Shown here piece by piece: positions 1,897-62,995 of a DNA stretch of 64,000 nt. Source of the DNA: Blasia pusilla (Eukaryota); assembly GCA_050084515.1 (NCBI GenBank), contig CM114271.1, forward strand, positions 8,928,001 to 8,992,000, in the 5' to 3' direction. Each line of letters opens with the position of its first letter. Position 1 is the stretch's first letter. The position numbers and the translations under genes are program-made. The notes beneath the pieces were generated by a model, which did not search any database, was not told where the DNA came from, and saw only the letters and a program-made list of their open reading frames with translations.

Positions 1897-1995
1897 CTGT
1901 TGATGAAAAGTAGAACCGTGTGAGAATCCAGAAGATGGGTAGTTCACTGTAACTCGTTATAATACATTGGTTTGTTTGTCATCTATCAAGAGTAC

Positions 1996-18079: not shown

Positions 18080-18425
18080 CAGGTGAAGCGCATCCAAGGG
18101 AGTGATGAGAGCAGGTGGAGCTGAAGAGCATCCAGGGGAGTGATGAGATCAGGTGAAGAGCATCCAGGGGAGTGATGAGAGCAGGTGGAGCTGAAGAGCA
18201 TCCAAGGGAGTGATGAGATCAGGTGAAGAGCATCCAGGGGAGTGATGAGAGCAGGTGGAGCTGAAGAGCATCCAGGGGAGTGATGAGATCAGGTGAAGAG
18301 CATCCAAGGAAGTGATGAGAGCAGGTGGAGCTGAAGAGCATCCAAGGGAGTGATGAGAGCAGGTGTGGAGTCAAGAGCATCCAGGGGAGTAATGAGAGAG
18401 TGTGGAGTCAAGAGCATCCAAGGAA
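18080..18425 (+). repeat. Second copy of the 38/32-bp minisatellite (family A 3' LTR)
   Basis: Same units as 10549-10890. Confidence 0.95.
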
Positions 18426-22457: not shown

Positions 22458-22689
22458 TGTCGTGCAAATACACATTGCTGCCAACATACATCGGCTATCA
22501 TGCACACACAAATCTAAGATCAATCTAACTATCAATCCTAACATCTCTACACATGAATGATTGGACAACCCCAGTATGAAGTTGAATACGAATTGTAAAC
22601 TCTGATGAAATTTGCAATCAACTGTGCTTCATCTAAACAACCATACTCATGATTCTGATATGCATTGGTGTGATAGCAAGAGAAAGGGT

Positions 22690-25600
22690 TTAGCTTCCCT
22701 ACTTTGTGTGAGTACCAAATATAGCACTTCATGTGTCTCATGAGCTTGACTGTAACTCAATTTTCAATACTCCCCCTCGAGCTCATATCGATATCTCTAA
22801 CGCCTAAATCATTTTTAAACATCTCAAACTTATCTCTCTTTAATGCCTTTGTAAAGATGTCAGTATTTTGCTTATCTGTACCTATATACACACGATCAAT
22901 TTATTGTGCAAGCACTTTCTCTCAGATAAAATGATAGTGCATCTCAACATGGTTTGTACGAGCATGAATTACAAGGTTATTAGAAAGCTTGATGCTACTA
23001 ATATTGTCTGCATATATTACACTAGATCCAAAGTTACTAACACCAATCTCAACAAGTAATCGATGAAGCCACACCGCCTCATATACTTCATTGGTTGCTC
23101 CTCTGTACTCAGCCTCTGTTGAAGATAAAGCAACTATCGGTTGCTTCTTTAAAGCCCAACTTATAGCTACGCTTCCCAAAGTAAATGAATAACCAGATGT
23201 GGAGTGTCGATCAGACATGCTTCTTGCCCAATCAACATTTGTGAATCCCTGTAATTGAAAACTTAGAGAAGGTTCAAATTGAAGCCCGAATTGAATAGAG
23301 AATTTCACATACCGCATAATCCTCCTCACAACATCAAGGTGAGGTTTTCGAGGTGCTTGCATAAACTAGCTTACTAGGCCAACAACATAGCTCAAATCTG
23401 ATCTCGTTATAGTTAGATAGACCAAACTTCCAACCATGTGCCTGTACATATTACAATCTGCAAGCAGCTCTCCTTCATCTACTCTTAGCTTCACACTCTG
23501 GTCCAACGGTGTAGAGATTGGCTTATAAGCCTTCATACCATATTTTGAAAGCATATGAAAAGCATATTGTTGTTGTAGTAACCACATGCTCTCTCCAAAT
23601 TTGATAAGCTCAATACCAAGAAAGTACTTGAGTTCTCCCAAGTCCTTCATATCAAATTCTGCTTGTAACTTAAGCTTGACTTGTTGTACAATTTCTTCAG
23701 TACTCCCAATAATTAGGAGATCGTCAACGTATAACACAATGAGAACCGTATGATCTTGTCCTCTCCAGACATATAACGAGGAGTCAGAATCACATACCCT
23801 AAAACCCAACTCTTGTAAGACGTATGTAATCTTGCCATACCAAGCTCTTGGAGCTTGTTTGAGCACGTAAAGAGCTTTCTTCAACGTGCATACGCGAAAT
23901 GGAAACTTGGGATACTCGTACCTAGGTGGTTGAGTCATATATACCTCCTCGTATAGATCTCCATTCAAGAAGGAATTCTTGACGTCCATGTGATATAATC
24001 TCTTCTTCTTACTTACTGCAACTGCAACCATTATTCTCGTAGTCGCCATCTTTGTAACACGGCTAAATGTTTCCTCATAATCGATGCCATATTGTTGTGC
24101 ATAAACCTTAGCCACCAATCTCACTTTGTATCTATTAATTTTACCATCTTGATTGCGCTTGATTTTGTAAACCCATTTGCAACCAATAGCTTCCTTATCA
24201 AAAGGTATATTAACTAGCTCCCATGTTTGTTGATGTCTTAATGCAGCAAGCTCTTCCTCCATAGCTTCAATCCATTCTACTTTACTTGCAGCTTCTTCAA
24301 AATAACTCGGCTTTTATTCTTGAAGGATAGTCATCATATATGCATGATGTGTCGCAAGGAAATCTTCATTTATGAATCTATGAACTGGATGTATAACTCT
24401 ATTTGATCTACGAAGTTGTTGTTGAGAGGTAGATGCCTCTGACACATGACTCGAGCTCTGACTAGTGTCAATAGATTGAATACATACTCTTCCTGTCCAT
24501 GGACTCACAAATTTAATTGATGAATCTAGGACCTCTCATAACTTTGCACTAGTACTTGGGGAAGTTGAAGACAATGTCTGTTGGTTTACAGTCACATTCT
24601 CCCCCTCAACAAACGAGTTCAGAGGTGGAATAAGCTCAGATGGAGCATACCATGACTTTAGCTCATCAAAGACAACATCGTGACTAATAATAAGTTGCCT
24701 AGAGGATGGAATGTAGCACTTATACCCCTTAGTTCCATCTGCATAGCCAATGAAGATACATCTTTCAAACTTGGGGTCTAATTTTTTACGTCTCTCAGAA
24801 GGAACATGAGCATAACAAATACAGCCAACTACTTTCAAGAAGGAAAAATCAAGTTTACTTCATGTGAAGACTTTGAATGGAGTTTTATCATGAATTCTTG
24901 TTGTTGGAGTTCGGTTGATTAAGAAGACTGCTCATGCTATAGCCTCTGCCCAATACAACTTAAGCATGTTCTTCTCATTCATCATAGCTTGTGCCGCTTT
25001 AGCAATATGTCAATTCTTCCTCTCATCCATTCCATTTTATTGTGGAGTGTAACGGTAAGTCACTTGACGTTGGATACCATTCTGACGTAAATAGTCATCA
25101 AACTCTGTTGATAAATACTCTCCTCCTCCATCACAATGCAATTTCAGCAAGTATTCTCCAATCTGCTTCTCTAGTAGAACTCCGAATGTTTGGAACATTG
25201 AGAATACATCTGACTTGGCTTTCAAAAAGTATACCCATATATACCTAGAGAAGCCATCAATAAATGAAATAAAGTATTGGCAACCACTAAGGCTATGTTG
25301 TAATGTTGTCCACACATTACTGTGGATCAACTCCAATATATAGGATGCTCTTCTACCTTGCATTGGAAAAGGAAATCTAGCTTATTTTCCAAATTGGCAA
25401 GCAAGACATACCTCTAATGTAGCAAGACTCGCTAATTCAAGGAGTCCAGTTACTATACTAGACAATGAAAGACTCTAGAATCTTTGAAGATTCATATGCT
25501 TAATTATTTTATACCACATATTTAAATCTGTGACTTGTTGGCCAATTTGACCATATACTGTTGTTTGAATCTCTAGCATAGAAACATCTAATTTGAACAT

Positions 25601-27777
25601 TCTGCCAAATCTAGTTCATTTGGCTATCGTAGTCTAGTCATCCTTTGTTTCAATGAAACAACCATCTGCGTTAAACTTCACTTAATAACCATGTTCTACT
25701 ATTTGTCCTACAAAGATGAGGTTTCTTGCAATGATAAGAACATAGAGAGCATTTCCAAGAGCACAAAGACCATATGATGCTATTGGAACTTTACTGATAT
25801 GCGTGATATGATGTTGAGTGTCATCTCGTATGAGCACAATTGCAGGATCTTTCACCGGATCCAAACTATTGAACCATTTAGCTTGTGAGGTCATGTGATT
25901 TGATGCACCTGAGTCAATGTACTAATCTGTTGTTGAGTCTTTCTTGACCATTCCTCCCATATGATGAGTCATGACCAAGAGATGCTCGGTTTGTGAATAT
26001 TGTTGTTCTTGGTATTGCTCTTGGTATTGTTGCTCCACATAGTTTTGTTACTGTAAGGCTCCTTTCCTCATATCTGCCTTCTTCTTGAAGCAAAACTTTG
26101 CATAGTGATCCTTTATCCCGCAGTAATTGCAAGATCCAAGACCCTGTACTGCTGACCTCGATCCCAACGATTTCCACCATTATCACCTTGTGATTGTGTC
26201 TGGTACTGGTTTGGAGTTGATTGAGTGACATTATATTGAGTGTATTTTCTTCCATATACTTGATATCCACCATGACCATGGAAGCTTCTGCCACGATCCC
26301 TGCCTCTGTTTGATCCATAACTTGTAAATGTCGCACTCCCTTGCAGATTAGACGAGATATCGCCGCCTACTACGTGCATATCTTCAGTGATTAAGAGTGG
26401 AACTAACTCTTGAAAGGTTGGATACTTCTCTCTCACAGAGATAGAGGTCTCAAAGGACTTGTAATCCTTTGGAAGGCCTTGAAGAGTGAACAAAATCATA
26501 TCATCATCTTCTACTGTCACTCCAATGCTATTCAACTAATCAACAATATGTATGATACTCAAAATATAATCATTGATGCTCTACAATCCTTTCCTAACTT
26601 TGTTCAATTGCTATTTCAATTGAAGCTTTCAGAACTTTGTAGATGTCTATAACAGCTTTTCCAATGCATCTGAGGCCTTCTTCGAAATATCAACATCTTG
26701 AATGTGACCAATATCATTGGCGAATTGATCGTTATTGAAATGTAGTGGATTACTTGCCTTGTGTGTTTGTTCCAGGCGTGAACATTCAAGTCTATTGAGT
26801 CACCTTCTTGCTTGCCTCATCACCTATGATAAGCTCCCATAGTTCTTGACTCATGAGAAATTATTTCATGCGAAACTTCTAGACATTGTAATTGTGCTTA
26901 TCTAGCTTTTCGCCTGTGATTGCTGTTGAGGAATACTCCATGACAAACGATTTTACTCATAAAAATATAATTTCATGCTCTCTACTTCTCCAATTGAAGC
27001 ACATATCACTCCTACATAGAAATTGACCTGAAATTTGCCAAAATTGATCAATTATATGAAAGAACTAGTCAAAATTAGCCTGTAGAGAGCAAGTTGCATA
27101 ATTTTTCTTCACTAATTGCACTTTCCTACGTTGAAATTGCTACTGCAAGAGCTCAAAATGTCTTAATCAAGCAATTTTGGATAAGTTGGAAAGCTCTCAA
27201 CAAGCTCTATAAGACAGCTAGTATCAAATTTTGGCATCATTATAGCCGCTGCGGACTCAGATGGCTAAATCGACCGGGAAAGCCTTAAAAAACGCCTCCA
27301 AAGTTTTATCACCGTAAAAAATCCACCCTAAATCTTCACCCACTGAGCTCTGAACAAAATTTCCTTATCCCAAACTTAAATTTTTCCTTCTCTTGCCTCT
27401 CTTATCTTCTCAAACATCAAGAATTCCAAGTGAAGTTCTCCTATCACTCTAATACCATGTGGAAAAATTGCTAAAGAAGCATAATTGGTGGGAAACGGCT
27501 CTCACACTCTCACACTCTCACACCACCATGGAGAACGAAATTTGCAATGAGAGAATGAATGGAGGTTTTTCCCCTTCTCAATTATATAGGGTATGTACAA
27601 GCAACCCTAACCCTAACCTTAATCATAGTCTCGAGTTAGACCAACTTTAATTAACCGACCATAGTTAAGAAAATCGCGCTTAACAAACTAACCAAGATTA
27701 AGCTTGCCACTTTGTGTGAGTACCAAATATAGGAGTTTAGGTATCTCATGAGCTTGACTGTAACTCGATCTTCAATA
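22690..27777 (-). mobile_element. Ty1/copia LTR retrotransposon, decayed
   Basis: 5' LTR 27458-27777; PBS TGGTATTAGAG (iMet type) at 27447-27457; gag, DSGASNHM protease, integrase (25037-25363), RT with YVDD (23366-24262), RNase H with SSTEAEY; PPT GAGGGGGAG at 22770-22778; truncated 3' LTR 22690-22769. Confidence 0.92.
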
Positions 27778-27928
27778 ACTCTTATTCTAGATAGCCTACA
27801 AAACAAGTCTAAATGCTATGCATCTTTTTGGTGCTGAGATCAGGAGGTTGGGTGCTATATCGCCCCATCGTTGGTCACCTTCCTGCAATCCATAACATCA
27901 AGAGTCATCTTGTATCTACCTATCATGC

Positions 27929-29190
27929 CTATTTACATATGGGACAAAGCCAATGTCCTTGAGGAACCAAGTCAAGAGGCGGCATCAAACACGACATAAG
28001 CCATCCTCGAGAACACCCATCATAAACTAGCATCGTGGCTGCGCCCTTGGCAGACCCACACAACATGCATCTCAAGCCTGTAGGAACAACTACCAAGCTT
28101 GGATCAATCCTCCCATCTATGTTTGGAAGATGATATGGCGCACAGTTACGCACATGAATTTTCCAAACGGTACCGTCACGACCCTCTAAAACAAGGACTC
28201 CTGAAGGTAGAATCTCTCGTACTCGTAGAATAGTGCATCCCGCCGTCACGTCCAATATCATCGATGCTGTCTGCTGTAGGTAGAGATAATTTCCGGGATG
28301 GAATCGTCGAATCCGTGCATCCTCCACGCGTAGTCGCGTACCTCAAGATATCGCGATGTTGAGCGATATCCAGGTTCTCAAACGCCATAGGCATGACTCT
28401 CCGAAAGAGCTCAACCCACTGAGAACATGCTCGCAGCCAAATGTCTGGATTGTCGAGGTCAAGTACGTCAACCACATCTTGTCAAATTGATGTCGGTAAC
28501 TCTGGCTCTCTCTCATAGAGCAAGAAATACGTTGAAAATGATGCCAAGGATGCATGTCGACTGAAGCGGTAATCCATCGCCAACCACGGCAACTATTGGT
28601 CCCAATCTCCCTAGTGTCCTGTCTGCAATCCATACTTGCGCAATCCTCTCTTCACCGTCTGCACAACTCTCTCTGGCAAACCATCTGCCTCCGGATGATC
28701 TCGAGAAGTCGTACGATGATCTATCAGTGCCTGATCACACAAGGCTTGAAAGTAACCCCTAAACTCAGTACCCTCGTGTGTCAACACCTCTACTAGTGCG
28801 CCAAAATGACTAAGCACTTTATCAAGAAATGCATAAGCCACTCCCTCACTCGATCTATCTGGAAACGCTACCAACTCAATCCACTTGGAGAAGTGCTCCA
28901 CCATGACCAACACGTATCGACTATGGTGTCCCGTCAATGGTAAAGGCCCTACAAAGTCTAAACTCTAGCGATACCCTAATCCCATGATCGATAAAGGATG
29001 CATGTGTGGTGTTGGAGCATTGAACGATGCCCGCACCCTACCACATACAATGCATCTGGCTACAAATTGCTGAACATCGGTCTACATACCATACCATCAA
29101 TACTGAATCTGAATCAAGCTAAATGTACGCTTGACTCCAAAATTCCCTAACTCCTCGTGAGCATGTCTCACAATTCGTGCTCGTTTTGAA
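27929..29190 (-). pseudogene. Integrase with C-terminal PHD finger (DNMT-gypsy copy 1)
   Basis: HAHEELGNFG..CIVC zinc finger; YVLVMVEHFSKWIE..GTEF..HPEADGLPER core; CMLCG..MLVYDGCSRGW..CL.PPL..VPQGHWLCPICK. Confidence 0.88.
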
Positions 29191-29789
29191 TGAGCTGGTG
29201 AGGACGTCAACCTATCCTTGAGCTCCTGCTCATCTCCCCAAAACCACTCCTGGTCCAACCTAGTCAACCAAGTCTCGACTCCTACTCTAGATCAAGGCTC
29301 GCTCCAGGTTGGAATACGTGTAGGGTCATTGGAAGATAGGAGTATCACTATCCAAATCAATCCGAATACCTGGACCCTTCAGCATACCCAAGTCATGCAT
29401 ACTATATGCAAAACAGTCCCTAAATCTCCGCAATAACTGCAACACTCATCTCCTCTATGCTCATGTTAACCTAGGACCAATCATCGGCTCCCAAGTCTCT
29501 CTCTTGACCTCTGGAGAAGAGGAGGGTGGTGATTGCTAACTAGCAACCTCTAGAGCAGCAACATGCGCTCCCAACTCAGGCACCAACTCTCTAGGCACTC
29601 CACTATGTCTTGCATCGGCGAGATGAACTCCCATCTCTCTATGCTCTCGTGACATATCCCATGAAGTCCATGGATACCTCTCCATCACCATCGCGCCCCC
29701 AACCAGTGTCTCACCCGTCCCGGTAGACGTTGCCCTACAAAGTGGACGTAATGTCATCGATGCCTCTCACAACCGTCTGTGCTCAGCCA

Positions 29790-30760
29790 AACCAAGACTG
29801 AACACCCAAGTAAGACAGTTCAGGTCCATGGCCTGACCCAATAGCTATGTGGGGGATGCCTTTGCCATCAGAGGCACCGCCGTTGTACATATAGAGAACC
29901 CCATAGCTCACTCTTGCTCATCAGCGTTGGTTTCCACGAGTGTACTTGCCAGCTCATTCCATATCATGCCTGGTCCTCCCTGACAAAAAGCATGAGATGA
30001 TGGGAAACTCACCAACGTAGGCAATGTTGCCCTTTGTTGGCCCACCCGATTGGCCACTGCCAACGGTGGTACATCATCATGAGTAACAACCTGAGATCGC
30101 CGCCCTATATCCAAGATCGCATCCACTATAAGTACCGATGGTCTCTGGACTCCAAAATAAGCCCATCTTAGTAACTCGGATGGTAAAAGGTCCGTCCACC
30201 ACAATCGTGGACGATGTGCGCGCGATCCAATACTCGCCGCATCCAACATCACCATCGGTCCTATCCACGACCGTACCTGATGTACACTCGCCATCACTTG
30301 GGCTCGAGTGTTACCTAACAATGGGATGTTCTCCAAAATGTAGGCTGGAGAACATTGGTGGGTAGTCTGCAAGTGACGAAGAACTCGCAACATCTCCCAA
30401 AACATGGCCGACCTCGGATCCTACAAACCAAGTCCCTGACCCACTGCAGAATAACCCTGACATGGCCACCATGCCACCGCCAAGGGTTTCCGACCAACCC
30501 TATCCAGATTTGGCGTCCCCAACAATGAAATGTTGGCCGGCAATACATGCTGATATCCCATGATTGCAAACACTGGCAATAATTGAGGATACTGCTGGAC
30601 TAGTCTTGACACATGATGTAAAGAGACTCTACGTGGAGTCTCATCCCTCTCAACATACAAGTACTTCTGTACTCGTACTCCGACCTGCGACATTGCAGCC
30701 AACACTGTACTAATCCCTCAAAAGAGATCTAGTATACATAAACCCTCCTCGGGATACTGC
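29790..30760 (-). pseudogene. C5-cytosine DNA methyltransferase domain within gypsy pol (copy 1)
   Basis: Motif I LDLF*GI, II YVERD, IV WPCQG, VI YILEN, VIII RAHRPRLWW, IX E*AMGF, X LLGQAMD, in canonical order. Confidence 0.9.
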
Positions 30761-31104
30761 CACACCATCAGTATGGTGTCCAAGGGTGTCAATGTCTCCA
30801 CTCCTAGAGCACGTTATAACTCTGTCTCGTCTCGCTCTAGAGCATAGGCTCAACTCCATGCCTGCCTCACAAGCTCATGTGCTATCCTCTGCAAATCGAT
30901 GCTCGTTCCCCACAAAGTTGAAGAAGTGTCGCCAGCAAATGTAGCCACGCTCGTCATCGCATGCCACTCCTCAAGACTATCCTCTACATCAGCGTTCCCC
31001 TCCAGTAAATCTTCAGGCCAACATAATGTGCCACAAGAAGCAGCAATTGTTGTTGTCGACCCGCAAAGTGAACCATCAAGTCTCCCTGCATACTGCACGG
31101 GTAG

Positions 31105-31560
31105 CTAACTCGCTCGTCCCTCACCTGACTGCCAACCTGGTCGATAGGAGGCTGTCTCCTCCCAAAAGTCAATTGTGAACCCTATAGGATACAATACGGT
31201 AGCCCCTACCAAAACATCATAAGACTCAGCCGGTGTCACAACCGCTCTCGTCCACACCATCGTACTATCCGTAGGATGATCGGGCCGAATCCTTATTGCA
31301 ATCTCATCGCGAGTCATGAACTGTGTCGAGGATGTGCCTCCCAGTGAAGTCATAATCTAGAATGGACATGGAATGATCTCACATTTCCGCAATCCCATCG
31401 CTACATATGCCGCCTTCCCCAACATAAGGGGTTGTGCTCTTGAATCAAGTAGCACTCTTTGCGGTCGATACACGACTTCAGATGGACCAATCAACTGGAA
31501 AACTCCATCTCGCTTGTCCAAGACAACAACTCCTGGTGAGACGGTTGCACGCTCTATCGC
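31105..31560 (-). pseudogene. Retropepsin-like aspartic protease (DNMT-gypsy copy 1)
   Basis: VLLDSRAQPLMLG (D-S-G-like active site) and YDVLVGATVLYPIGFTIDF. Confidence 0.7.
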
Positions 31561-31930
31561 TGGTCTAGCTAGCAACTCTGCCATTCTAGCGACTGCTGCA
31601 TGCCAACTCTCTATGGTCCTCATCTTGAGCACATGCTCGAAGGGTACCTCTGCCACATCTCCTGTGTGAGTCTCAACACTAGAAGAACCAAACTTATTGC
31701 TCTCACAGAACGTCGCTGCCAACCAAAAAAAATCAGCTCGTCGATCTCCACATGTCAACAAATCTCTGGCTGTAAATAGTTGCCATCTCTCGTAACGTGC
31801 CAGTACTAGGCGGTGTCGAATGCTGCATAGGCCTGGTAGACGTACTCGCCTCACCTGCTCCTCTAATTGCATGGGCATCTACGACAAAAATACTCCGTAA
31901 AGGCTGTCTAGGGACCATCGATGGGGTCCA

Positions 31931-32242
31931 TGTGGAAAATTGCTAAAGAAGCATAACTGGTGGGAAACGACTCTCACACTCACATACCACCATGGAGAAC
32001 AAATTTTGCAATGAGAGAATGAGTGGAGGCTGGTCCCCTTCTCAATTATATAGGGTATGTATAAGCAACCCTAACCCTAACCTTAACCATAGTCTCAAGT
32101 TACAATAACTGTGATTAACTAACCCTAGTTAAGATAATCGCGCTTAACTGACAAACCAAAATTAAGCTTCCCTACTTCGTGTGAGTACCAAATGTAGCAG
32201 TTCAGGTGTCTCATGAGCTTGACTGTAACTCAATCTTCAATA
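31931..32242 (-). mobile_element. Solo LTR of the copia family
   Basis: Matches 27458-27777 over its length; flanks GTCCA/GTCCT. Confidence 0.88.
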
Positions 32243-32699
32243 GTCCTCTAACAACATTAAAGACTAGGTAAGTCTAGCATGCCTGCCGGCTTCTCCCCTC
32301 TAGGGATCCAACTCCACATCAGATTCTCGTGCCTTAGAAGCTCTCACCACGTCTCTTGTAACCACTGCATCTGCATCCACCTCTGCGGTGTTGCACAAAA
32401 ATCCCATACCTCCAAGATCTCCCGCCATATCCTAGGCCTGAGCACATCATGAAGTTGACGCGCCCCCTACACATGATGTAGATGCCTGTTGGGTTGTCGT
32501 AGCCTGAAGGCGTTGCTTCAACTGAGCAATCTTTGCCAAAGCTGCCTTTGATGCAAGTGCTGCACTAGCTCTAGCAGGTGGTGGAGTCCTGCCCCTACCA
32601 CGTCCTCGACCTCCCTCTAGACACAGCTCGGGGTGGAGCTCGAAACATCTCTCACATGCGTGCCCATATCTCTGGCAATGATCATACTGAGGTAAGGGT

Positions 32700-33892
32700 G
32701 GCCTCCTTTAGGCCACCTCATATACAACTGATGGTGCTGCCTGCACTCCACTCTGCTGTCTATAATCTCGCTGACGATGTGATCCTCCACACGTCCAACA
32801 AGAAATACCTTGGCCGTGCTGCCAAGGGTGTGACTGAACTGGTTGTGGTCCTGGCTCCCGATATCCTGCCGTAGCCCTCGGTCCCATGACTCTATCTCGA
32901 GTAGTGCGCTCCGCCACTAATGGAGACACCATCACTTGTGTCGTCTCCCTTGAAGATGACGTGCATGTCGTCAAAACTCTCTCCTCAAGTATGTTGAGCT
33001 TAATGCGCTCCGCCAACAAAAATATAGACTTGAGAGTAGGTGAACCAACATGTAAGAGAGTTGCATCCCGAACTCACTTCTATAACTCGCAGTCTAGCAT
33101 CGCATACCATAACTGAACCGCTTGCACCTTCGTCACTCCGTGAGTCGCTCTGATCAACTGTCAAAGCCGTGCATAGGCTTCTCGAAGACTCTCTCCCGCT
33201 CTCCGCTGAAACTCATGAATCGACTTCAGCTTGTCGGTCCTCACCCCTTGATAGTTCCTCCCCAACTCTTGGAAGAACAAAACCAATAGGTTGAACGCAT
33301 GTGGTACTCGACTCGTCACACTCATAATACTCGGGTTGACAACTCCTCCATGCGGTTAGTAGGTGCTAGTGCAGCCGCCACATCATACATCGCACGCCCT
33401 ATGAGGGACACATATCCTGGAGACCAAAATAGTCTCCACGCCTCAATCTCCGCCTCATGGAGAATCCAAAACTCGTGATAATCATCCATGGGAGGCCCCT
33501 CCAGATGCTGAAAAAGTCCCTTCCATGCCATAAAATGGTCGAATCTCTGATGGTTCCCTATCCTCTATGCATCGCACCAACTATTGAACTCCTCCATGAA
33601 ATCATCAAACTCGATGATTCCCACCATGCCTGAGAACCGTCAGGATCCCCTTGTGTCCGGACCCATACATATCGCGATCATCCATGTCCCACAACAATGG
33701 TGTGGCGACACTCGCTACACTTAGTGGCCTCTGGGGTAACTCAAAATCCGTTGACGTCACCTTTAGAGTAACTACAACTGGTGGCTGAGGTGGTTCCTCG
33801 AGTGGAAACCCTCGATATCTAGCCCCACTCCGTGTAAATCCTCCGCCACTTCTACCACTACCATGCTCCCCAGTACCATGTGGATGCGTCAT
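32700..33892 (-). pseudogene. gag remnant with CCHC-like knuckle (DNMT-gypsy copy 1)
   Basis: Retrotransposon gag-like stretch near 33150-33300; CWTCGGSHRQRDY. Confidence 0.65.
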
Positions 33893-35425: not shown

Positions 35426-36734
35426 CTCACACAGCACCTCCAGTGCTGCTCTCCTAACGTTTCCACATCGATGATCCGCTCATCTGAGGGAATCTATGTG
35501 GCTATGGGGAATCTTTTGGAATCTTCCTCAAATGAGCTCCGTTTCTGGTCCCGTTTTCACTATTGGACTCAAATTTTTGCGATCTTTCCAATGGCGAATT
35601 CAGATCTCATAAAATCTTGCACAATTAAAGACCATTGTGCCCTCCTTACATTCGTTTCTTGCTTGATTTTCCTCCTGCCCAATATTCATCCAATTTGGTC
35701 GAGAATCAACCACACCTCACTCAAAATCAACAACGAAGTGCCCACGGACTTGTTGACTTGCCCACACTCAATCAAGTCATGATTGATGGTGATTTCCTCA
35801 CCAAAATTGTCTTAATAACTCCGTCCCTACAATCTTATCCTCAATTGCTCCACTCTTGAGCAGCTCCACCAGGATTGAGAAGCCTCCCCCTCTTCAAATC
35901 TTGTCAAATCTATCTCATTGCAAAGATTTATCAATTCTGAACATCTCACTTCGATTTCACCAATTCTTCTACCCCATGTTCTCCCGCATAGTCAAGATAC
36001 ACTAGCTTGCAATTCTTGCAAATCCCACAGCACCATAATTGTGCTCTACACCACAAATTGAGTCCGACTTTCTCTTCTATTTAGAACCAACGTGCATCTC
36101 CTTAGGATATAAAGTTGAATACGAATTGTAAACTCTGATGAAATCTACAATCAACCGTGCTTCATCCAAACAACCATACTCATAATTCTGATATGCACTA
36201 GTGTGACAACAAGAGAAAGTATACACGAGGATTCCCAAAATGTGTGATCTCCTTATTGATCACTCCTAGCCCACTCTTCAAGAGAGAATCTATGCTCAAT
36301 ACATGCACGTCGCAATGTATCATAGATTCCAATAAGGGTCTGCAATCCTAAGGAGATGAGCTCCAAATGAGACTCATCCAAGGTATACCCCCCTAGGCAC
36401 CTCCATGGATGACCTGTACACACAAGTCACCTCCCTCCTAGCAGGTCACTACCAACATGTAGTATATCCATATTAGCTCCCTAACAACTACACATATGGT
36501 CCCCTCATGAGACCGACTACCAACTAACCCATGATACTATAGGTCCAAGTGGAGCCATTCATGGTTGGGAAGGTCAACCTCTCCAAGGTTGCCACTCCTC
36601 ATAAAGGGAAGGGTGACCTACACCCGTAGGTCACCTCTTAAGAGCAATTCACATATGACCTCTCAAAATAGGGAAGTACAAGACCCCTCTAAGGCCTCGA
36701 TACTATCTCGCCCTGCGCCTCATCTATCATGACA

Positions 36735-50870: not shown

Positions 50871-53079
50871 ATGTCGTACGCATACACATTGCTTCACAAT
50901 ATACATCCCTTTCATCGAACATACACATAAATACGCATAATCCCATGCTAACTCATGGCATCCAAACAACGAGTCAAGAAGTACAAAAATATCTCCAATG
51001 AGAGGCTTGGGTTACACGCACACGGCAAGGAGGACCATAGCTCAGCCGCCTCATGCCAAGAGGTTCAACAAAGAGAGAATGAGCTCTCAAGCTCTCTCTC
51101 TTGGAGGTAATATCCCCTTCCCTCTCCCAAGCTCTCTCCTCGATAACCTATGCTCGTAGGTCACCTCCTTGGCTCTTGACATGCTGTAGCGGATCAAGGG
51201 CCACTTCCCAAAGTGGGAACTTAATTATACTCCAAATGGAAACTCACCCAAAATAGTAAGTTACTATATATGACTCCAAATGAGCCAAAACAAAGGAGAA
51301 ACCTGCTCTCTCAGGTTACCCGTGGCCTGAGTAAGTCATCCTCGGCTTCCTGAGACTGTCCTTTAGTATCTCTGAAGGCGCTCTACTAGATCTCGCCAAT
51401 CTATCCTAAGAGATGTGACAACTATCGTACGCATATAATCGCTACACAACATACCTCACTGTCATCGAACATACACATAAACACGCACGATCCCATTCTA
51501 GCTCATGGCATCCAAAAAATGAGACGAGAAGAACCAAAATATCTCCAATCGCCCCCTTAGCCAGTGGTTAGGTCCGTCTAACTCTAGATAGCAATCTATC
51601 CCTACCTACCATGACATACATCTCTCGGACGCTAAGGGCAAAAAGATCGGGTGCTCATGTGGCCCCATCGTTAGTCTCCTTCTTGTCATCCATGTCATAG
51701 ACACAACTCGGAATCTAGAACTACCTACTCTATGTACATCTGGGACACATCCATCATCCATGAGGAACCCTGGTGAGAGGTGGCGTCAGACATGCCATAT
51801 ACTATCCTCTCGAACATTCATCACAGACTAGCATAGTGGCTGCACCATGGGCGGAACCACGCAACATACATTACAAGCTTGCAAGAACTACTGCTAAGCT
51901 CGGATCAATTGTACCATCAATGTTAGGAAGGTGACATGGCGCACAGTTATGCACATGGTCCTTCCAAACCATACCATCGCGTCCCTCCAATAAAAGAATA
52001 CAAGATGGCAAAACCTCACGCACTCTCAAGATGATGCGCCCTGCAGTCACATCCAACGTCGTGGACGCATCTGCAAAAAGTAGACATAGTCTCCCTACTG
52101 AAACCTCTAGATAGTAGGTCGATAACCACCTCCCCAAATAGTCGCATACCTCAACGTATCCCAATGCTGCGCAATCTCCAAGTTCTCAAATGCCATGGGC
52201 ATCACTCTCCGAAATAACTCAACCCTTTGAGAACATGCTCGCATCCATACATCATGGTCATCAAGGTTCAATACCTTACCAACATCTTGATCAATGGCGA
52301 GAGGTAAATATGGCTCACGGCCATAAAGTAGCAAGTACGGTGAGAAAGATGCTAAGGACAACTCCCTGCTGAATTTGTATCCCATTGCCAACCACAGCAA
52401 CTGGAGGTCCCAATCTCCTAGGTGACCTCTCTGCAAGCCATACTTGCGTAATGCTCTCTTCACCGTCTGTACAACCCTCTCAGCTAGTCCATCCGCCTCA
52501 GGATGATCTCGCAAAGTGGTGCGGTGGTCGATCAACGCCTGATCACACAAGGCGTGAAACTCCTCGTGAAACTCAGTACCCTGGTCTGTCAACATCTCAA
52601 CTGGAGCACTGTAATGACTCAGCACTCGATCGAGGAAGGCATACGCTACTCCCTCACTCGCTTTGTCAAGCAGTACAACCAACTCTATCCACTTCGAGAA
52701 GTGCTCGACCATCACCAACACATAACGACTATGGCGCTTCGTCAAAGGTAAACGTCATGCAAAATCCAAACTCCATCTATAACCTAAACCCATGATCAGA
52801 AGTGGATGAAACTATGGCGTTAGAGCATTGAACAATGCCCGGACCCAATCACAAACCATACCCCTAGCAACAAGCTGTTGAACGTCAGTCTAAATGCATC
52901 ACCACGAATAGTGTATCTAGAGCAACATGTACGACTGCTTCACTCCAAAATGACCCAACTCCTCATGGGCATGATGCACCAAACGTGCGATGTGTGAAGG
53001 ATGAGGCACTACACATACTTTACCATCCTCACATACTTGCAACACATGTGTTTCCTCCCACCGGAACCGTCACGCTCGC

Positions 53080-55063
53080 TGTCTCACCTGGTAATACATG
53101 GCCAGCACACAACCCAAGTGAAAATGTTGCTAGTTCCACCAGTTCGGTCCCATGTAAGAGCTTAGGGCCAGATCAGAAGATCAAGATCTACAAGATGTAC
53201 TCCTTAACTACTGTAAACCCCACCTCTTTACCTTAAGAGGCTGGAGGAACTCTCTCCACTTCAGTATCACAATCCTATCCTCACCCTACTAACCAAAACT
53301 CCTTCCTTCCTCTTGAGTGCTTTGAGTGGAGTGGCCAGTGGAACCCAACAAGCACACTCTACTTAGAATTCACAGTCAAGGATGACCAAGGCAGCATAAG
53401 GTCCTCCAATGTGCTGCCTTGGACTAGTTGAATGTACCAAGGCATCCTCTAAAGTACACCCAACTCCTAACCGATCAGGTAGTGCAATCACCTTCTTCTT
53501 CTCCTCATACCTTGCTGATCTGATGTTCTCCCTTTTTGTTCAGGTAGTAGGAGACTTAACACGCTGAGCCCATGGTCTTCTACCTATAGGGGAGCTCAAG
53601 CATGACCCTCTCTCTCTCTCCACTCACTAACTCTTATCACTTACCAGACCTGGAAGTCCAGGTTGTCACACCCTGGAAGTAATCATGTGATTGGTGTCAA
53701 AGGCCAAGCTTAGGTGGGCAGAACAACAAGCTTTCCAAGCACACCTTGGTGTAGCACAATCTTGGAACCCAAGCTTGCCTCCCCTCTGGGTATGTGACCT
53801 CTTGTCCCTCTCCTGCACTTTTGAATGATTAGTTGAATCATCTCCAAGAATCTCCCTTCATCAAGCCCTCCCCCAACTCATCACTCAATCATGCACATAC
53901 TCAGATACAGGGCAATGGTATGAACTCATTTCACAGGGCTACCTCCTGTGTATCACAAAATCATAGAGTACATGAGAGACCTTCTTCTTCTCAGCCCCCT
54001 TCAAGCACACTACACACTACCTAGACCTGGGAGCACATAACTCTACTGGTTAGCTTGGCTCAAGAGATAGAGTGTCTACTAGCCAACAACATGTCTATGC
54101 CCGCCTTCAAGCAAACCCACCAGAGTATTTATAAGTGAAGTTGAGAGCCTTCTTCTTCCATGGGCTTCTCTGGCATTTTGGGTTCCTACCTTCCTACAAA
54201 TCTACCTCCCCCTAAGCATCTACTCCAAGGCATCTACTGCCTGAAATTTCGACCTCATCTACTTCTGAACCTGTTCTAACTAGCATTTCCCAAGCTTGCT
54301 TCTTCTCAAGCTGGTTCGAGCTTCCCTTGGATGCTCCTCACCTGATCTCACCTGATCTCATTACTTCCTTGCTGCTCCTCAGCTCCTCACCTGACTTCAC
54401 CTGATCTCATTACTTCCCTGCTGCTCCTCAGCTGATCTCATTACTTCCCTGATGCTCCTCACCTGATCTCACATGATCTCATTACTTCCCTGCTGCTCCT
54501 CACCTCCTCATTACTTCCCTGCTGCTCCTCACCTGATAAGGCCTAAGCAGTCGAATGTGTAGCTTTCCTGGAAACTTTTGGGGTCAACTATCATACATCA
54601 GCACCATGTCCCCCTCCTTCACTAGATCATGCTGTATTCGGTTATCAAACCTCATCTTCCTTTGTTGCTGAACGGCCTTGGTCTTCTCTAATGGTGCCTT
54701 TCTCTCCTCCTCTAGGGCATCAATCATATCCAGCCTGCTATCTATGCCACCTTCAGGTTGGAAGTGCCCTTCTAGAGTATGATCAGTCTTCAACTCCAAC
54801 TCTACTACCGAGAGAGGGTTCTGCCCATACACCAAGAAGTAGGGAATTTTCCCTGTGGTGCTCTTCTCAGCTGTGTTGTAAGCATGGACAGCTGAAGCTA
54901 ATTTCCTATCCCAATGTGATGTGTGAGCTACCACCATCTTGGTCCGAATGGCACCAATGATCCCATTTAAATTGCAGATTGTTGTTTTACCTCCTTCTAC
55001 TCACCTAACTAGAGTCCCAAAAGTATCTAACACACATGGGAGCCACTCATGAAGGGGCGCACA
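53080..55063 (-). mobile_element. Solo LTR of family A (~1.98 kb) with integrase fragment and variant minisatellite
   Basis: Reverse complement of 10017-12282; TG...CA; flanks CTCGC/CTCGT. Confidence 0.9.
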
Positions 55064-57997
55064 CTCGTTGTAGGATCCGATCCCACTCTCTAGCACCCAC
55101 TGTGCTTGCGACGCTGCCAGTACGTAGGTACTCCAAGACTACTCCATCTTTATGAATATCTCGGCCACTTATCATCTCCTTTCTGGCCTCTGGATCCAAG
55201 GACTCTCCACCAAACCTCGCCATCGAAGTCTCAGCAATCTGGCTCTCCATAGCCAACAAGCCCAAATAGGCTGACGTGTGCCATCTTGGCACCACCTCCT
55301 CGTCACTCTCACCATGCCATCGAGCTCCAATTGCATCTCGCTGACTCGGGCATGGGTTACAGCTCAAACCATCTGCATCTGGGTTGAGCATCCTAGGTCT
55401 ATGCACTATCTAGAATTCATACTCTTGCAACAAAAGAGCTCACCTCGCAAGCTTCCCTGTAAGCTTATCAGACTCCATCAACCACTTAAGTGGCTGATGA
55501 TCACTAATGAGTGTAAAGGGGTCGCCGGATAGATAACACCTGAAATGTGCGACAACCCACACTAGAGCCAAACACTCACCCTCATATGAGCTATACTTTT
55601 CCTGTGCAGCGTTGTTCAAGCGACTAGCGTAAGCCACCACGAACTCTTTACCATCATCGCCATGTAGGGTGAACACCGCTCCAAGCCCCAACATGCTCAA
55701 ATCTGTATGCAATTGGAAAGGATGTCCCTTGATTGGTCTCCTCAATATGGGCACGAACGTCAATGTGTCCTTGAGGAGCTAAAATGCTCTCTCTTGCTCG
55801 TCCCCCCAGTGGCACTCTTGATCCATCTTGGTCAGCAAGGTTAGCGGCTTCGAAATCAAACTGAAACCCTTGACGTACCGTCGATAGAAGTTCGCCAATC
55901 CCATGAATGCACAAACTCGACTCACATCTGTAGGACGTGGAATGCCTGACATAGCCTCTGCTTTCGTCTACTGCACACCAAGGCCACCTGGGTACATTGT
56001 ATGACCCACGTATTCAATCTGATCGTAGAAGAACTTGCACTTGCCTAGGTGTAGCTTTAGCCCATGTAACTGCAATCGTTGAAACGGGGGCTGGTATTCT
56101 GGCAGGAGAGAGGAAGAGAGGAGAGGAAGAGAGGAGAGTCTCTCTTCAAGAAAAAGGGCCAAATCCGCCTCCTCTCTTCAAAACTTTTTGACATATTTGA
56201 AATTTTTGTTTGCTTTCAAATTCATGAAATCTTTAGAAGAGAGTAGGTAGTGGTCCACATTCGGGCCTAAAGAAACCGCCTTTTTCCAAGGGGCAAAAAA
56301 CAAGTAGACATCATAACACCACTACAAACATTTCTCCATCACTCTCCATGTGAGCCTAAGTTTCTTCACATTGCCTGTCTCAGTCTACAGTAAGATGTGC
56401 CCAGGGTTATTTTTGTTGGAGGACCACCCGGATGCGCATCGGTATGATGCCAACCTCTCTTTTTCCAGGGATTATTGCCTCCATCATGGCCTCCCCATAA
56501 TTGCCCCATAATGAATGGTGTCTGCTCAAGACCAACTTTATGAAATGTGAACACACAAGACGATAATTGAACCAAAAGATTGTTAGCTATCTGGAGTAAA
56601 GAGGAACTGATGTCCCTTCATTCAGATCCTAAATCTGAGAAACCGAGAAGCTCCACCCCTCCCAACCCGTCGGAATTTTACAGGTTGCAACTTTTGCAAC
56701 CCGTCGGAATTAGATGGCTTGCACCCCTTGCAAGAAAGCTCACCACAACAAAGGAAAGATTTTGAGAAGTGATTCCATTCCACCCTGCACCCACAAGAAT
56801 CCAACAGTTTGGGAATCCCAAATGGCAATTCGACAGGTAGTAGGAATCCAACACGTCTTAGAGAAAAAAAGAAGCCTACGACTAGTTTGACGATACTAGG
56901 GGAACGAGCCAAAAGTGAAGAAGCCCGCCACAATGCCTCAGAAGTTGGTCTCACACGGAAAGAGTCTAATCACTCAAGCAACCAACTTGTCAGAATCCGA
57001 CAGCTTGCCTGGAAATGGTTAAAAAGTTGCAGTGGTCAAAAAGTGAAAAGTTGCAACCCGTCGGAATCAGACGGGTTGCAAAATAAAAATTATGAGTAGC
57101 TAGACGAACACAATCGACAAGTCCAAAAAAAACATTCAGCAAATTTTTGCAAACACCATTATCCTTTGAAAATCTCTTATCTTTTATTACATCCGAATGA
57201 AGCTCAGAAATGTACATTTGATATAGTCTATGATTTCTTCAACCTCGTCATCTACAAATTTACTCCTAATTCTCCTAGGTTCCTATACAAAAGGAATGTC
57301 ATGGGATACAAGTGGCTCCTCTAGCCGCTTGTAGACGGGGATCGAAAATGTTGGCAAATTCGAGAGCCTTGCCCCCTAGGTACACCATAACGGTCCCATG
57401 TAACCTGATTTGAGTCCCACCGCCTTCCTTGGCAGTATATCTTGTACGCTCTGCAAGGTGACACCCATCCACTATCAATATCTGCTCCGTCCTTGGAAAC
57501 ACCATCACGAAAATCCGACAGGTAGTAGGAATCCAACACGTCTTAGAGAAGAGAAGAAGCCTACGCCTTGTTTGACGATACTAGGGGAAGGAGCCAAAGT
57601 GAAGAAGCCCACCAAACAGAATACCTCTAAAATTGGACCAACAGGGAAAGAGTCCGATCACTCATGTAGCCAACCTGTCGGAATCCGAAAGGTTGCATGG
57701 AAGTGGTTCAAAAGGTGCAGTGGTCAAAAAGTGAAAAGTTGCAACCCGTGGGAATCCGACATGTTGCAAAATAAACTGTCGAAGTACATAGACGATCACA
57801 TTCAACAAGACCAAAAAAGATATTCAGCAAACTTTTACAAACACCATCATCGTTCGAAAAAATCTTGTCCTTTATTACATCCGAAGGAAGCTCGGAAATT
57901 TACATTTGATCTATTCTATGAATTCTTCTGCCTCATCATCAAATAAATCCCTACTCCAAAACGCTGCAGTCAATCTGGGTCCTTGAGGTCTTTGAAC

Positions 57998-61746: not shown

Positions 61747-62303
61747 GGATGCAAAATGAGGTTTTAGATTGTAGTTTCATTTTCTAGAACCTACACTTTG
61801 AGTTTGAATTCTATTAAGCCCAAGGCAAATGATAGATTTTTTCCAGACCTTGGATGGAAAAAGTGATTGGTTCCACACTTATGATTCCACTGATTTTTCA
61901 GTTTTCTAAATTTTGTGCAAATTGCAACTCGTCGGACTTAGAGAGGTTGCCAAAATGTGGAAGAGGAAAATAAAACTGTGGGAGTGCTTAAGAAGTGAGA
62001 AGAAAAGTGCAAAATAAATCACACAAAAAGTTTCCTCTCTTCAACCCAACGGAAACTCTCTTACAAAAAAGTATCTCTTTGGGTTGAAGGTAGTTTCCTC
62101 TCTCCTCTCTTCCTCTCCTCTTACCACACCTCTCGTTGAAACACCTCCTCTAGATGTCGCTCATGCTCCTCAACCGTGGCGCTAAAGACTACAATGTCAT
62201 AAATATAATATCTAGCAAAATCCAAACATGCCAAGATCTGATCCATGACTCTTTCAAACTTAGCAAGGGCATTCTTTAACCCAAATGGTAAGAACCACCT
62301 CAC

Positions 62304-62915
62304 GTGGCACCAAGTTGGTCCACCAAAGTTGCGGGCGATGTGCTCGTGAACCTACACTCGCCGTATCCAACAACACTTTGGGGCCAATTCATGCGTGCAT
62401 CTAATGTGCACTCATCACCATGCGGGACCTCGAATTGGCCAAAATTGGCTGATTCTCTAGAGTGTATGCAAGAGAACAAGATTGATGCTCCTATAAATAT
62501 CGCAAGATCCGCATCATCTCCCAAAAAAATTTGGACCAAGAGTCAACTAACCCGCTACCTTATCCAACACTCGATTGGCCCTAACACAACCAACCATAAA
62601 TGACCAAGTCTATGGTCCCTACCCGATTCAAGTCCTACGCACCCAACAATGAAATATCCCTTGGTAGGAAACTCTAGTATCCCTGGACAGCAGACGCAGA
62701 CAACAAGTCGGATAACCCGAGGTGTAACTACACCACATGGTGAAGTGAAGCGCGCCTTGCAACATCATCAATCTCCACATATAGGTACCGTTGCACGCAT
62801 ACTCCAGCCTACAAAATAGTAGCTAAACTAGTGCTAATCCCACCAAAGAGATCTAGCACGAAAATACCCTCCTCTAGAATGCACCACACAATCGGGATGG
62901 TGTCCAAAGGGGTCA
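62304..62915 (-). pseudogene. C5-cytosine DNA methyltransferase domain, motifs I-VIII (DNMT-gypsy copy 2)
   Basis: VLDLFGGIS, YLYVEID, RDISLL, DLVIYGWLC*G, YTLEN, GSRAHRPQLWWTN, then a deletion junction into RT (WFLPFGLKNA). Confidence 0.88.
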
Positions 62916-62995
62916 TAGTAGCACTGCTGGCTACCTCGAGTTCCTCTGACCCATCACGCTCTAATGCAAAGCTCTCGCTCCATGCGGTCTACACA

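What the first reader, a model, noticed from the sequence alone, without database searches (positions are those of the whole stretch)
27929..28069. PHD finger in place of a chromodomain at the integrase C-terminus
Seen: C-x2-C..C-x2-C..(H)-x2-C..W-x-C-x2-C spacing ends pol in both copies (here and 51730-51872). The copies carry complementary lesions, and the His position (CTT versus TAT) is one base from CAT in each. Established: PHD fingers read histone H3 tails, and chromoviruses use a chromodomain at this position for targeting. Inference: histone-guided integration in an element that also encodes a DNA methylation writer.
Basis: partly seen in the sequence, partly recalled or inferred. Interest (0 to 1): 0.7.

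Follow-up and report, generated by a model that had tools for sequence, protein, structure and literature searches.

The report
Histone-reader finger on liverwort retrotransposon integrase
A very abundant jumping-gene family in a liverwort ends its insertion enzyme with a histone-reading zinc finger and also carries a DNA-methylating enzyme, a combination shared with relatives in green algae that may help it choose where in the chromosome to land.

Summary
The PHD finger is real. Both window copies are decayed (His lost, frameshift from the integrase core), but other genomic copies carry the C4HC3 finger in frame after integrase: His in 48 of 48, all eight ligands in 38 of 48, integrase and PHD in one ORF in 13 of 13 scanned, dN/dS about 0.1. 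The host is a liverwort; the family has at least 1,150 copies. It is a Ty3/gypsy-type element with a DNMT3-like domain, split A...B-A-B repeats, TG...CA ends and 4-bp target duplications: the KnitGypsy-Dnmt3 kind. The integrase-PHD fusion recurs in Marchantia, Calypogeia, Sphagnum, Klebsormidium and chlorophytes. It is not a chromovirus on the integrase tree, so the PHD is an analogue of the chromodomain, not shown to replace one. It resembles KDM5-PHD1/BHC80 readers of unmodified H3, without an H3K4me3 cage; the liverwort form lacks two acidic contacts. Histone-guided integration is plausible (about 0.5) but unshown; PHD-bearing Gypsy elements and this hypothesis are already in print. The scan noted the split repeats before in another genome.

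The parts
27929..28069 (-). PHD finger, copy 1 (Cys3 and His lost), followed directly by the pol stop
28070..28312 (-). Integrase C-terminal domain and linker, copy 1; same frame as the PHD, different frame from the core
   Evidence: tblastn with a natural ORF of another copy
28302..29213 (-). Integrase H2C2 and DDE core, copy 1
   Evidence: PF17921 and PF00665
29182..29267 (-). Site of an internal deletion of about 1.6 kb that removed most of RT and RNase H in copy 1
   Evidence: blastn against L031 jumps 5667 to 7245 in oriented coordinates; no RT or RNase H Pfam hit
29780..30791 (-). DNMT3-like C5 cytosine methyltransferase domain, copy 1 (with stops)
   Evidence: PF00145 24.9 bits
31115..33624 (-). 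Protease-like and gag-like region of copy 1 (assigned by position and DNA similarity to other copies; no Pfam hit), interrupted by a foreign repeat at 31928-32242
36107..36734 (-). 5' terminal repeat A of copy 1, starting TGTCA at 36734
   Evidence: blastn to the 3' repeats of L012 and L002
22458..22686 (-). Remnant of the 3' A-B repeats of copy 1, ending GACA at 22458; flanks match in 3 of 4 bases
22689..27777 (-). Copia-type element inserted in the 3' untranslated part of copy 1 (label from recalled RT and RNase H motifs, not Pfam-scanned)
   Evidence: ORFs; repeats
51730..51870 (-). PHD finger, copy 2 (Cys2 and His lost, stops at both Trp codons)
51871..53090 (-). Integrase of copy 2 (H2C2, DDE core, C-terminal domain; frame break near 52062-52095)
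50872..51549 (-). 3' split repeats of copy 2: B1 51425-51549, A2 50992-51420, B2 50872-50999
   Evidence: (L031, L051 against window)
55062..56085 (-). RT C-terminal part and RNase H of copy 2, separated from the integrase by an insertion at about 53083-55065
62133..62986 (-). RT start (62133-62294) and DNMT3-like part (62296-62986) of copy 2, displaced by nested insertions; the 5' end of copy 2 was not found in the window

Best explanation
The two stretches are decayed copies of a high-copy liverwort Ty3/gypsy-type retrotransposon family of the KnitGypsy-Dnmt3 kind, with domain order gag, protease, DNMT3-like, RT, RNase H, integrase, PHD, stop. SHOWN: the PHD is the last domain of pol, in frame with a DDE integrase, under purifying selection, at a fixed distance from the integrase C-terminal domain in liverwort, moss, Klebsormidium and chlorophyte relatives; insertions have TG...CA ends and 4-bp target duplications, as expected of this integrase. 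INFERRED: after polyprotein cleavage the PHD stays on integrase and tethers the integration complex to nucleosomes through the free N-terminus of histone H3 (Ala1 pocket, Arg2 salt bridge), as KDM5-PHD1/BHC80-type fingers do. Lacking an aromatic cage, it should not favour H3K4me3 promoters, and would bias insertion towards H3K4-unmethylated intergenic or repeat chromatin. It works like a chromovirus chromodomain but arose separately. The methyltransferase probably acts on the element's own DNA or new insertion and is not the PHD's main partner. Odds: domain and fusion real 0.97; binds H3 tail 0.65; biases target choice 0.5.
For: In-frame ORFs 13 of 13; ligands kept in 38 of 48 copies. Between subfamilies a and b the PHD has dN 0.117, dS 1.19, ratio 0.098 (364 non-independent pairs, 42 of 48 copies in register), against 0.077 for the preceding domain and 0.081 for the core. 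PF00628 in 117 of 120 long homologs listed, no chromodomain listed (the query included the PHD, which favours such hits); named relatives in Marchantia, Calypogeia, Sphagnum, Klebsormidium, Volvox, Chromochloris and Tetrabaena, Pleodorina, Chlamydomonas eustigma, Scenedesmus, Monoraphidium. Spacing from the integrase PCH motif to Cys1 is 23 residues in 166 of 199, whereas the DNMT sits before RNase H in 7, after it in 88, and is undetected in 14 of 120. Best single-domain PDB hits are KDM5B and KDM5A PHD1, DPF2/3 and PHF21A; no ING, BPTF or TAF3 among 60 of 78 shown. KDM5B contacts for H3 Ala1 and Arg2 (PMC4225485) are kept: L325-type 196, D328 189, P347 168, G349 161 of 199; no Trp two before His in 199 of 199 (that cage position is recalled). 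Complex model with the host H3 tail: weak support, 0.38 against best control 0.02, runs agree in at least 90% of contacts, partner pLDDT at least 54; the mark was reached by 51 of 78 solved and 2 of 108 mismatched pairs, but at 0.60 or under by only 5 of 78 solved and all 4 passing mismatches, and like complexes are solved, so it may be memory. A PHD-bearing Chlamydomonas Gypsy inserts intergenically 2.6 times more than chance (PMC9940879; its membership of this clade was not tested).
Against: No binding or targeting data exist. The liverwort finger lacks the acidic residues equivalent to KDM5B D308 (Lys4) and E321 (Thr3) and has net charge +2, while relatives with long tails have median -3; each loss cost KDM5B about 6- to 12-fold in affinity, so binding and K4 discrimination may be weak here. 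141 of the 150 best copies, on the 8 contigs of known length, are evenly spread (pooled KS p 0.32): no chromosome-scale targeting. Target duplications are varied. After subtracting within-subfamily divergence the PHD is less constrained than the core (0.088 against 0.026). At least one close relative ends without a PHD (P0077). Cleavage sites in pol were not mapped.
Confidence: 0.5

Rival explanations
1. The PHD is a general nucleosome or chromatin anchor (or a structural or protein-interaction module) that raises integration efficiency or nuclear retention without biasing where insertions land.
For: Even spread of 141 copies; varied target sites; loss of the Lys4- and Thr3-contacting acids in the liverwort form while the Ala1 and Arg2 contacts stay; some PHD fingers bind atypical targets (PMC10124903, passages).
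Against: Chromosome-scale evenness cannot see local chromatin bias; 130 of 199 homologs keep an acid within one residue of the D308 position.
Confidence: 0.27
2. The PHD serves the element's methyltransferase, as the ADD finger serves animal DNMT3 (recalled): it reads H3K4me0 and licenses methylation of the new copy or its flanks.
For: DNMT and PHD co-occur in most homologs (106 of 120 with a DNMT hit); in 88 the DNMT lies between RNase H and integrase, so a DNMT-integrase-PHD product is possible; the catalytic Cys is kept in 100 of 100 covered homologs.
Against: In this liverwort family RT and RNase H separate DNMT from PHD; the DNMT moves while the PHD stays fixed on integrase; 14 of 120 have no DNMT hit; activity of the Klebsormidium domain was not detected in yeast (inconclusive, PMC5890265).
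Confidence: 0.14
3. The element is a chromovirus whose chromodomain was exchanged for a PHD finger.
For: Same terminal position; a chromovirus with chromodomain plus PHD exists (P0440); REM1 is described as a chromovirus (PMC2774666) and cited as PHD-bearing (PMC6673714).
Against: The PHD group is one side of a long branch (100/100); chromodomain-bearing rows, including P0440 and the window's chromovirus, group apart (100/98) with three non-chromo rows between (40 rows; same split, 73 rows); 0 of 242 clade proteins match the window chromodomain against 62 of 150 chromovirus-like representatives. The trees are unrooted and hold no named Chlamyvir or REM1 rows.
Confidence: 0.05
4. The PHD reads H3K4me3 and steers insertion to active promoters.
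For: PHD fingers as a class include H3K4me3 readers (PMC10124903).
Against: No Trp at the cage position in 199 of 199 (Gly in 184); nearest solved fingers are readers of unmodified H3.
Confidence: 0.03
5. The Cys pattern is chance, or a captured host-gene fragment with no role in the element.
For: Both window copies are broken and out of frame with the core.
Against: Pfam above cut-off, conservation in 48 copies, dN/dS 0.1, and presence across green plants.
Confidence: 0.01

Closest known systems
KnitGypsy-Dnmt3 of Klebsormidium nitens (de Mendoza et al. 2018, PMC5890265; passages and text supplements seen, figures not)
   Same: Gypsy domain set with a Dnmt3-like domain in pol and DIRS-like split repeats (A-coding-B-A-B); K. 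nitens proteins KFL_015960010 and KFL_005000010 carry integrase plus PHD and fall in the same integrase clade.
   Different: The paper's text and text supplements do not mention a PHD (0 hits; Fig. 4c unseen may show it) or any land plant copy; here at least 1,150 copies in a liverwort. That those two K. nitens proteins belong to KnitGypsy-Dnmt3 is inferred, not checked.
Gypsy-7a_cRei of Chlamydomonas reinhardtii (Craig et al., PMC9940879; passages seen)
   Same: Gypsy Gag-Pol with a PHD finger; intergenic insertion bias; targeted insertion proposed.
Chromoviruses (Tcn1 and others; PMC6317226 passages; window element 41216-48585)
   Same: A histone-reader domain at the integrase C-terminus.
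   Different: Chromodomain, ordinary paired LTRs (96.9% identical in the window), separate integrase group, no DNMT.
REM1 of C. reinhardtii (paper not read; cited in PMC2774666, PMC6673714, PMC9940879)
   Same: LTR element cited as PHD-bearing.
   Different: Described as a chromovirus with a truncated integrase in reverse frame.
KDM5B/KDM5A PHD1, PHF21A (BHC80), DPF2/3 fingers (PDB 2mny, 7klo, 2puy; PMC4225485 passages)
   Same: Nearest solved fingers; Ala1 pocket and Arg2-binding Asp kept.
   Different: D308 and E321 equivalents absent in the liverwort form.
EpiLTRs and DAM-LTRs (bioRxiv 10.64898/2026.05.21.726589; passages seen)
   Same: Retrotransposons combining DNA methyltransferases with a histone reader.
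   Different: Those use a chromodomain and a DNMT4-related domain; the preprint calls them distinct from streptophyte Gypsy-DNMT3 and mentions no PHD finger.

Membership tests
PHD finger (PF00628) | C4HC3 zinc ligands and Pfam score over cut-off | tested here: met
   29.1 and 35.6 bits in the window; 35-43 bits in 13 other copies; all eight ligands in 38 of 48 copies, incomplete in both window copies
PHD readers of unmodified H3 (KDM5-PHD1/BHC80 type) | Ala1 pocket and Arg2-binding Asp | tested here: met
PHD readers of unmodified H3 (KDM5-PHD1/BHC80 type) | Acidic residue before Cys1 that holds unmethylated Lys4 | tested here: not met
   Absent in the liverwort copy tested; within one residue in 130 of 199 homologs
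PHD readers of unmodified H3 (KDM5-PHD1/BHC80 type) | Measured binding to H3 tail | not testable with these tools
   Only a weak complex prediction
PHD readers of H3K4me3 (ING/BPTF type) | Aromatic cage with Trp two residues before His (position recalled) | tested here: not met
   Trp in 0 of 199, Gly in 184
Ty3/gypsy LTR retrotransposons | Order PR-RT-RH-IN with H2C2 and DDE integrase | tested here: met
   D, D, E present with 34 residues between the second D and E
Ty3/gypsy LTR retrotransposons | TG...CA ends and short target-site duplication | tested here: met
   4-bp duplication in 8 of 9 copies with both ends found, out of 20 examined
Ty3/gypsy LTR retrotransposons | Two complete identical LTRs | tested here: not met
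   Split arrangement A...B-A-B instead
Chromoviruses | Chromodomain at integrase C-terminus | tested here: not met
   No PF00385; 0 of 242 by phmmer
Chromoviruses | Grouping with chromoviruses in pol phylogeny | tested here: not met
   Integrase trees, unrooted, unnamed references
Chromoviruses | Tf2-type SH3/GPY-F module before the reader domain | tested here: inconclusive
   No Pfam hit in own copies; hhalign probability 1%, 16 columns; PF24626 listed for one algal relative, P0080
KnitGypsy-Dnmt3 kind | Dnmt3-like C5 methyltransferase within Gypsy pol | tested here: met
   PF00145; PCQ in 15 of 20 copies; DNMT3A/B best PDB hits but weak, HhaI close behind; no DNMT tree built
KnitGypsy-Dnmt3 kind | DIRS-like split repeats with Gypsy domains | tested here: met
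KnitGypsy-Dnmt3 kind | Common descent with the Klebsormidium elements | tested here: met
   K. nitens integrase-PHD proteins group with own copies (89/91 and 98/89); identity of those proteins with the named element inferred
KnitGypsy-Dnmt3 kind | Methyltransferase activity | not testable with these tools
   none
DIRS/Ngaro tyrosine-recombinase elements | Tyrosine recombinase in place of a DDE integrase | tested here: not met
   No recombinase family in the frames and ORFs scanned; DDE integrase and target duplications present
Phygy clade | NCGN target preference (PMC6317226) | tested here: not met
   0 of 8 duplications have CG in the middle two positions; no Phygy reference in the trees

The most novel reading that the evidence does not exclude
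An ancient non-chromovirus Gypsy clade, inherited since the chlorophyte-streptophyte split and massively amplified in a land plant, couples a reader of unmodified H3 on its integrase to its own de novo cytosine methyltransferase (and, in chlorophytes, possibly an adenine-methyltransferase-like tail): it lands in H3K4-unmethylated chromatin and methylates its new copy, a self-contained reader-writer unit like animal DNMT3-ADD. It inserts through a DDE integrase from a split-repeat intermediate whose CA-NN-TG junction resembles a joined pair of ends.
Probability: 0.2. Interest if true: 0.8.

Novelty: new variant of a known kind. Interest (0 to 1): 0.5.

Why it matters
If true, Gypsy elements evolved a histone-reading integrase tail twice: the chromodomain and, in a clade spanning green algae to liverworts and mosses, a PHD finger for a different mark. 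With more than a thousand insertions in one liverwort genome and relatives in Marchantia, where chromatin maps can be made, PHD-guided targeting, so far only suggested, becomes testable. It also extends methyltransferase-carrying retrotransposons from Klebsormidium into land plants and warns that gene models such as Mp7g09570 and DNMT3 or PHD gene counts in bryophytes include transposon proteins. The general idea is already in print, which caps the surprise.

Tried and rejected
Chance pattern: rejected. Chromodomain after or beside the PHD: none. Homology of the pre-PHD domain to the chromovirus SH3 module: inconclusive. Chromosome-scale clustering of copies: none. A CG-centred target preference as in Phygy: not seen in 8 duplications. 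Pfam found no family for the gag-like region or for the long C-terminal tails of algal relatives. The 73-row careful tree did not finish, so a quick tree was read and a 40-row careful tree was run whose bootstrap had not fully settled. Look-ups of earlier findings by sequence and by place gave nothing. The journal version of the chromatin-evolution survey is not held and its preprint supplement listing 823 transposon-chromatin fusions could not be seen; it may already list these elements. Craig's thesis and the REM1 paper were not read. Expression, local chromatin context of insertions, and a DNMT tree were not examined.

Full report
Observation. On the minus strand, 27929-28069 and 51730-51870 translate to Cys-rich stretches that end at a stop. 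Pfam PF00628 scores them 29.1 bits (E 1e-6) and 35.6 bits (E 9.7e-9, stops as X), over the cut-off of 24. The codons at the His position are CTT and TAT. Copy 1 lacks Cys3 and His; copy 2 lacks Cys2 and His and has stops at both Trp codons, so the lesions are only partly complementary. In both copies the finger is in a different frame from the integrase core. The window alone therefore does not show a fusion.

The family. A search of the own genome (390 Mb, 26 contigs) with the copy-1 ORF gave 11,499 first-look candidates; 150 were scored, all with E at most 2.2e-62. Among 48 other copies, His is present in 48 and all eight ligands in 38 (two were not covered at the last Cys; these are best matches and lean towards intact). 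From 20 loci chosen for long open frames, 13 PHD-terminal ORFs were scanned; all 13 hold the integrase core and the PHD in one ORF, and L031 (786 aa) and L032 (665 aa) also hold RNase H. None of the 20 loci has an unbroken pol. The order in L031 is C5 methyltransferase, RT, RNase H, H2C2, rve, PHD, stop. Three subfamilies are told apart by their 3' untranslated parts. Between subfamilies a and b the 46 PHD codons show dN 0.117 and dS 1.19 (ratio 0.098; 364 non-independent pairs, 42 of 48 copies in register); the preceding 75 codons give 0.077 and a core segment 0.081 (21 of 42 copies kept). After subtracting within-subfamily divergence the ratios are 0.088, 0.055 and 0.026. The finger was under purifying selection while the family diverged, a little less tightly than the core; dS is near saturation.

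Host. An exon of the UPL3-like gene at the window start is 97% identical to Marchantia polymorpha, 94% to Calypogeia fissa and 88% or less to named moss, lycophyte, fern and seed-plant proteins: a liverwort.

Ends. The elements do not have two complete LTRs. They read A, coding region, B, A, B. Nine of 20 loci had both ends; all start TGTCAC and end GACA, and 8 of 9 have a 4-bp target duplication. The inner junction pattern has 1,150 exact matches in the genome and the reversed control none, a lower bound on copy number. The integrase keeps D, D and E. So the DDE integrase that bears the PHD is the enzyme that inserts these elements (inference from ends and duplications). In the window, copy 1 spans 22458-36734, has lost most of RT and RNase H, and is interrupted by a Copia-type insertion; copy 2 keeps B-A-B at 50872-51549 and is broken up by nested insertions, with its methyltransferase part at 62296-62986.

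Methyltransferase. PF00145 is hit in copy 1 and in three ORFs of other copies. The PCQ motif is kept in 15 of 20 copies. The best PDB matches are DNMT3A and DNMT3B, weakly (E about 1e-3), with HhaI close behind. No DNMT tree was built and no activity is shown.

Distribution. Of 186 long homologs, 120 were listed; 117 carry PF00628 and none a chromodomain (the query held the PHD, which biases this). Named ones are chlorophytes (Tetrabaena, Pleodorina, Astrephomene, Chlamydomonas eustigma, Scenedesmus, Monoraphidium). A search at shorter lengths (129 hits, 120 listed) added Marchantia, Calypogeia, Sphagnum, Klebsormidium nitens, Volvox and Chromochloris. In 199 of these 240 proteins a strict C4HC3 pattern was found; in 166 of 199 it begins 23 residues after the integrase PCH motif. 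The methyltransferase lies before RNase H in 7, after it in 88, in a protein without RNase H in 11, and was not found in 14 of 120. The PHD is thus the fixed companion of integrase and the methyltransferase is the mobile part.

Chromovirus or not. The window holds a real chromovirus (41216-48585) with a chromodomain after its SH3 module, so the slot is the same. With its integrase as query, 150 representatives were fetched; 62 match its chromodomain, against 0 of 242 proteins of the PHD clade. On integrase trees (73 rows quick; 40 rows careful, bootstrap not fully settled) the PHD rows are one side of a long branch (100/100), chromodomain-bearing rows plus two others group at 100/98, and three non-chromo rows lie between. 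Within the PHD group, streptophyte-type rows group together (89/91), which fits vertical descent. The trees are unrooted and lack named references, so a deep sister relation is not excluded, but nesting in the sampled chromoviruses is. Homology of the pre-PHD domain to the chromovirus SH3 was inconclusive.

What the finger reads. The best single-domain solved relatives are KDM5B and KDM5A PHD1, DPF2/3 and PHF21A; no ING, BPTF or TAF3 finger is among the 60 of 78 shown. Readers of H3K4me3 use an aromatic cage and readers of unmodified H3 use acidic residues (PMC10124903, passages). The cage Trp position (recalled: two before His) is Gly in 184 and Trp in 0 of 199. KDM5B binds H3 Ala1 with L325, P347, G349 and W351, Arg2 with D328, Thr3 with E321 and Lys4 with D308 (PMC4225485, passages). 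The first five are kept in the clade (196, 168, 161, all by pattern, and 189 of 199) and in the liverwort copy tested; E321 and D308 are not kept in it, and its finger has net charge +2. A complex model with the host's own H3 tail gave weak support: 0.38 against best control 0.02, contacts agreeing at 90% or more, partner pLDDT at least 54; such low passes came from 5 of 78 solved pairs and all 4 passing mismatches, peptides are untested, and like complexes are solved. The best reading is weak binding to the free, unmodified H3 N-terminus.

Targeting. Not shown. 141 of the 150 scored copies lie on 8 contigs of known length and are evenly spread (pooled KS p 0.32). This excludes strong centromere-scale clustering only; local chromatin could not be examined.

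Mechanism. Shown: in-frame fusion, selection, conservation, DDE-type ends. Inferred: the PHD stays on processed integrase, docks on H3 tails and biases insertion away from H3K4me3 chromatin (about 0.5). Rivals: an unbiased chromatin anchor (0.27), a partner of the methyltransferase (0.14), a chromovirus domain swap (0.05), an H3K4me3 reader (0.03), chance (0.01).

Literature. De Mendoza et al. 2018 (PMC5890265; passages; three text supplements; figures unseen) describe KnitGypsy-Dnmt3 with Dnmt3 in pol and DIRS-like repeats; the text has no 'PHD', 'moss' or 'fern'. PMC6673714 (passages) says many retrotransposons encode PHD fingers. PMC9940879 (passages) reports a PHD in Gypsy-7a_cRei Gag-Pol, a 2.6-fold intergenic bias and possible targeting. 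PMC2836005 reports a C-terminal PHD on a Ginger integrase-like transposase; bioRxiv 10.1101/2021.11.30.470311 (passages; supplement unseen) reports PHD-transposon fusions; bioRxiv 10.64898/2026.05.21.726589 (passages) reports chromodomain-methyltransferase EpiLTRs. PMC6317226, PMC12344493, PMC8557442, PMC2774666 and PMC9985172 were seen as passages and do not describe this clade's PHD. Eight searches on the element (listings and abstract starts only) found no paper describing an integrase-terminal PHD as the mark of a green-lineage Gypsy-DNMT3 clade or such elements in liverworts; the library lacks most subscription papers, theses and Repbase reports.

Verdict. A real feature; a new variant of a known kind. 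The fusion is solid, the targeting role is a reasonable and already published type of hypothesis that this high-copy land-plant family makes testable. Interest 0.5.

Noticed in passing
L031-L070; window 50872-51549 and 36107-36734; genome-wide: Split terminal repeats A...B-A-B on a DDE-integrase element. The inner B|A junction reads GACA-NN-TGTC, a near-palindrome like two joined ends, while the true ends are TG...CA with 4-bp duplications. 1,150 exact matches to the junction pattern, 0 for the reversed control. How such an element primes and integrates is unexplained; a purine-rich run precedes B1.
   Followed up: partly
P0013, P0016, P0023, P0118 and others: Chlorophyte-type relatives continue about 330 residues past the PHD; the last part looks like an adenine-methyltransferase fold (Atlas feature hits 0.95-0.96, clusters with N6_Mtase 14% and MTS 26%; both motif-like patterns in 10 of 68 tails; no Pfam hit). 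If real, these carry C5 methyltransferase, PHD and N6-type methyltransferase together.
   Followed up: partly
P0003-P0122: The DNMT domain lies before RT/RNase H in 7 homologs and in the liverwort, but between RNase H and integrase in 88; most of the latter have Glu-Cys in place of the usual Pro-Cys catalytic motif.
   Followed up: partly
window 41216-48585 (-): A near-complete chromovirus with 1-kb LTRs 96.9% identical and a chromodomain at about 42931-43080 (PF00385, E 1.2e-14); related LTRs at 15912-16908 and 5149-6151.
   Followed up: partly
P0440: A chromovirus-type polyprotein ending SH3, chromodomain, PHD: an independent PHD capture at the integrase tail.
   Followed up: partly
P0246 (Marchantia Mp_7g09570), P0249, P0264: Annotated host gene models in Marchantia and Sphagnum that are integrase-PHD pieces of this family (77%, 79%, 67% identity); domestication not tested.
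   Followed up: no
window 1-3850 (-): Host UPL3/TRIP12-like HECT E3 ligase gene; one exon is 97% identical to Marchantia polymorpha and 94% to Calypogeia fissa.
   Followed up: partly
window 10422-11467, 17955-18992, 53080-55056: Another Gypsy-like family whose long repeats contain 32-38-bp purine-rich tandem arrays; one piece interrupts copy 2 between RNase H and integrase.
   Followed up: no
window 60047-64000: Several inverted repeats (60047-60393 with 62996-63345; 61688-62120 with 63547-64000) around the displaced DNMT part of copy 2; nature not determined.
   Followed up: no
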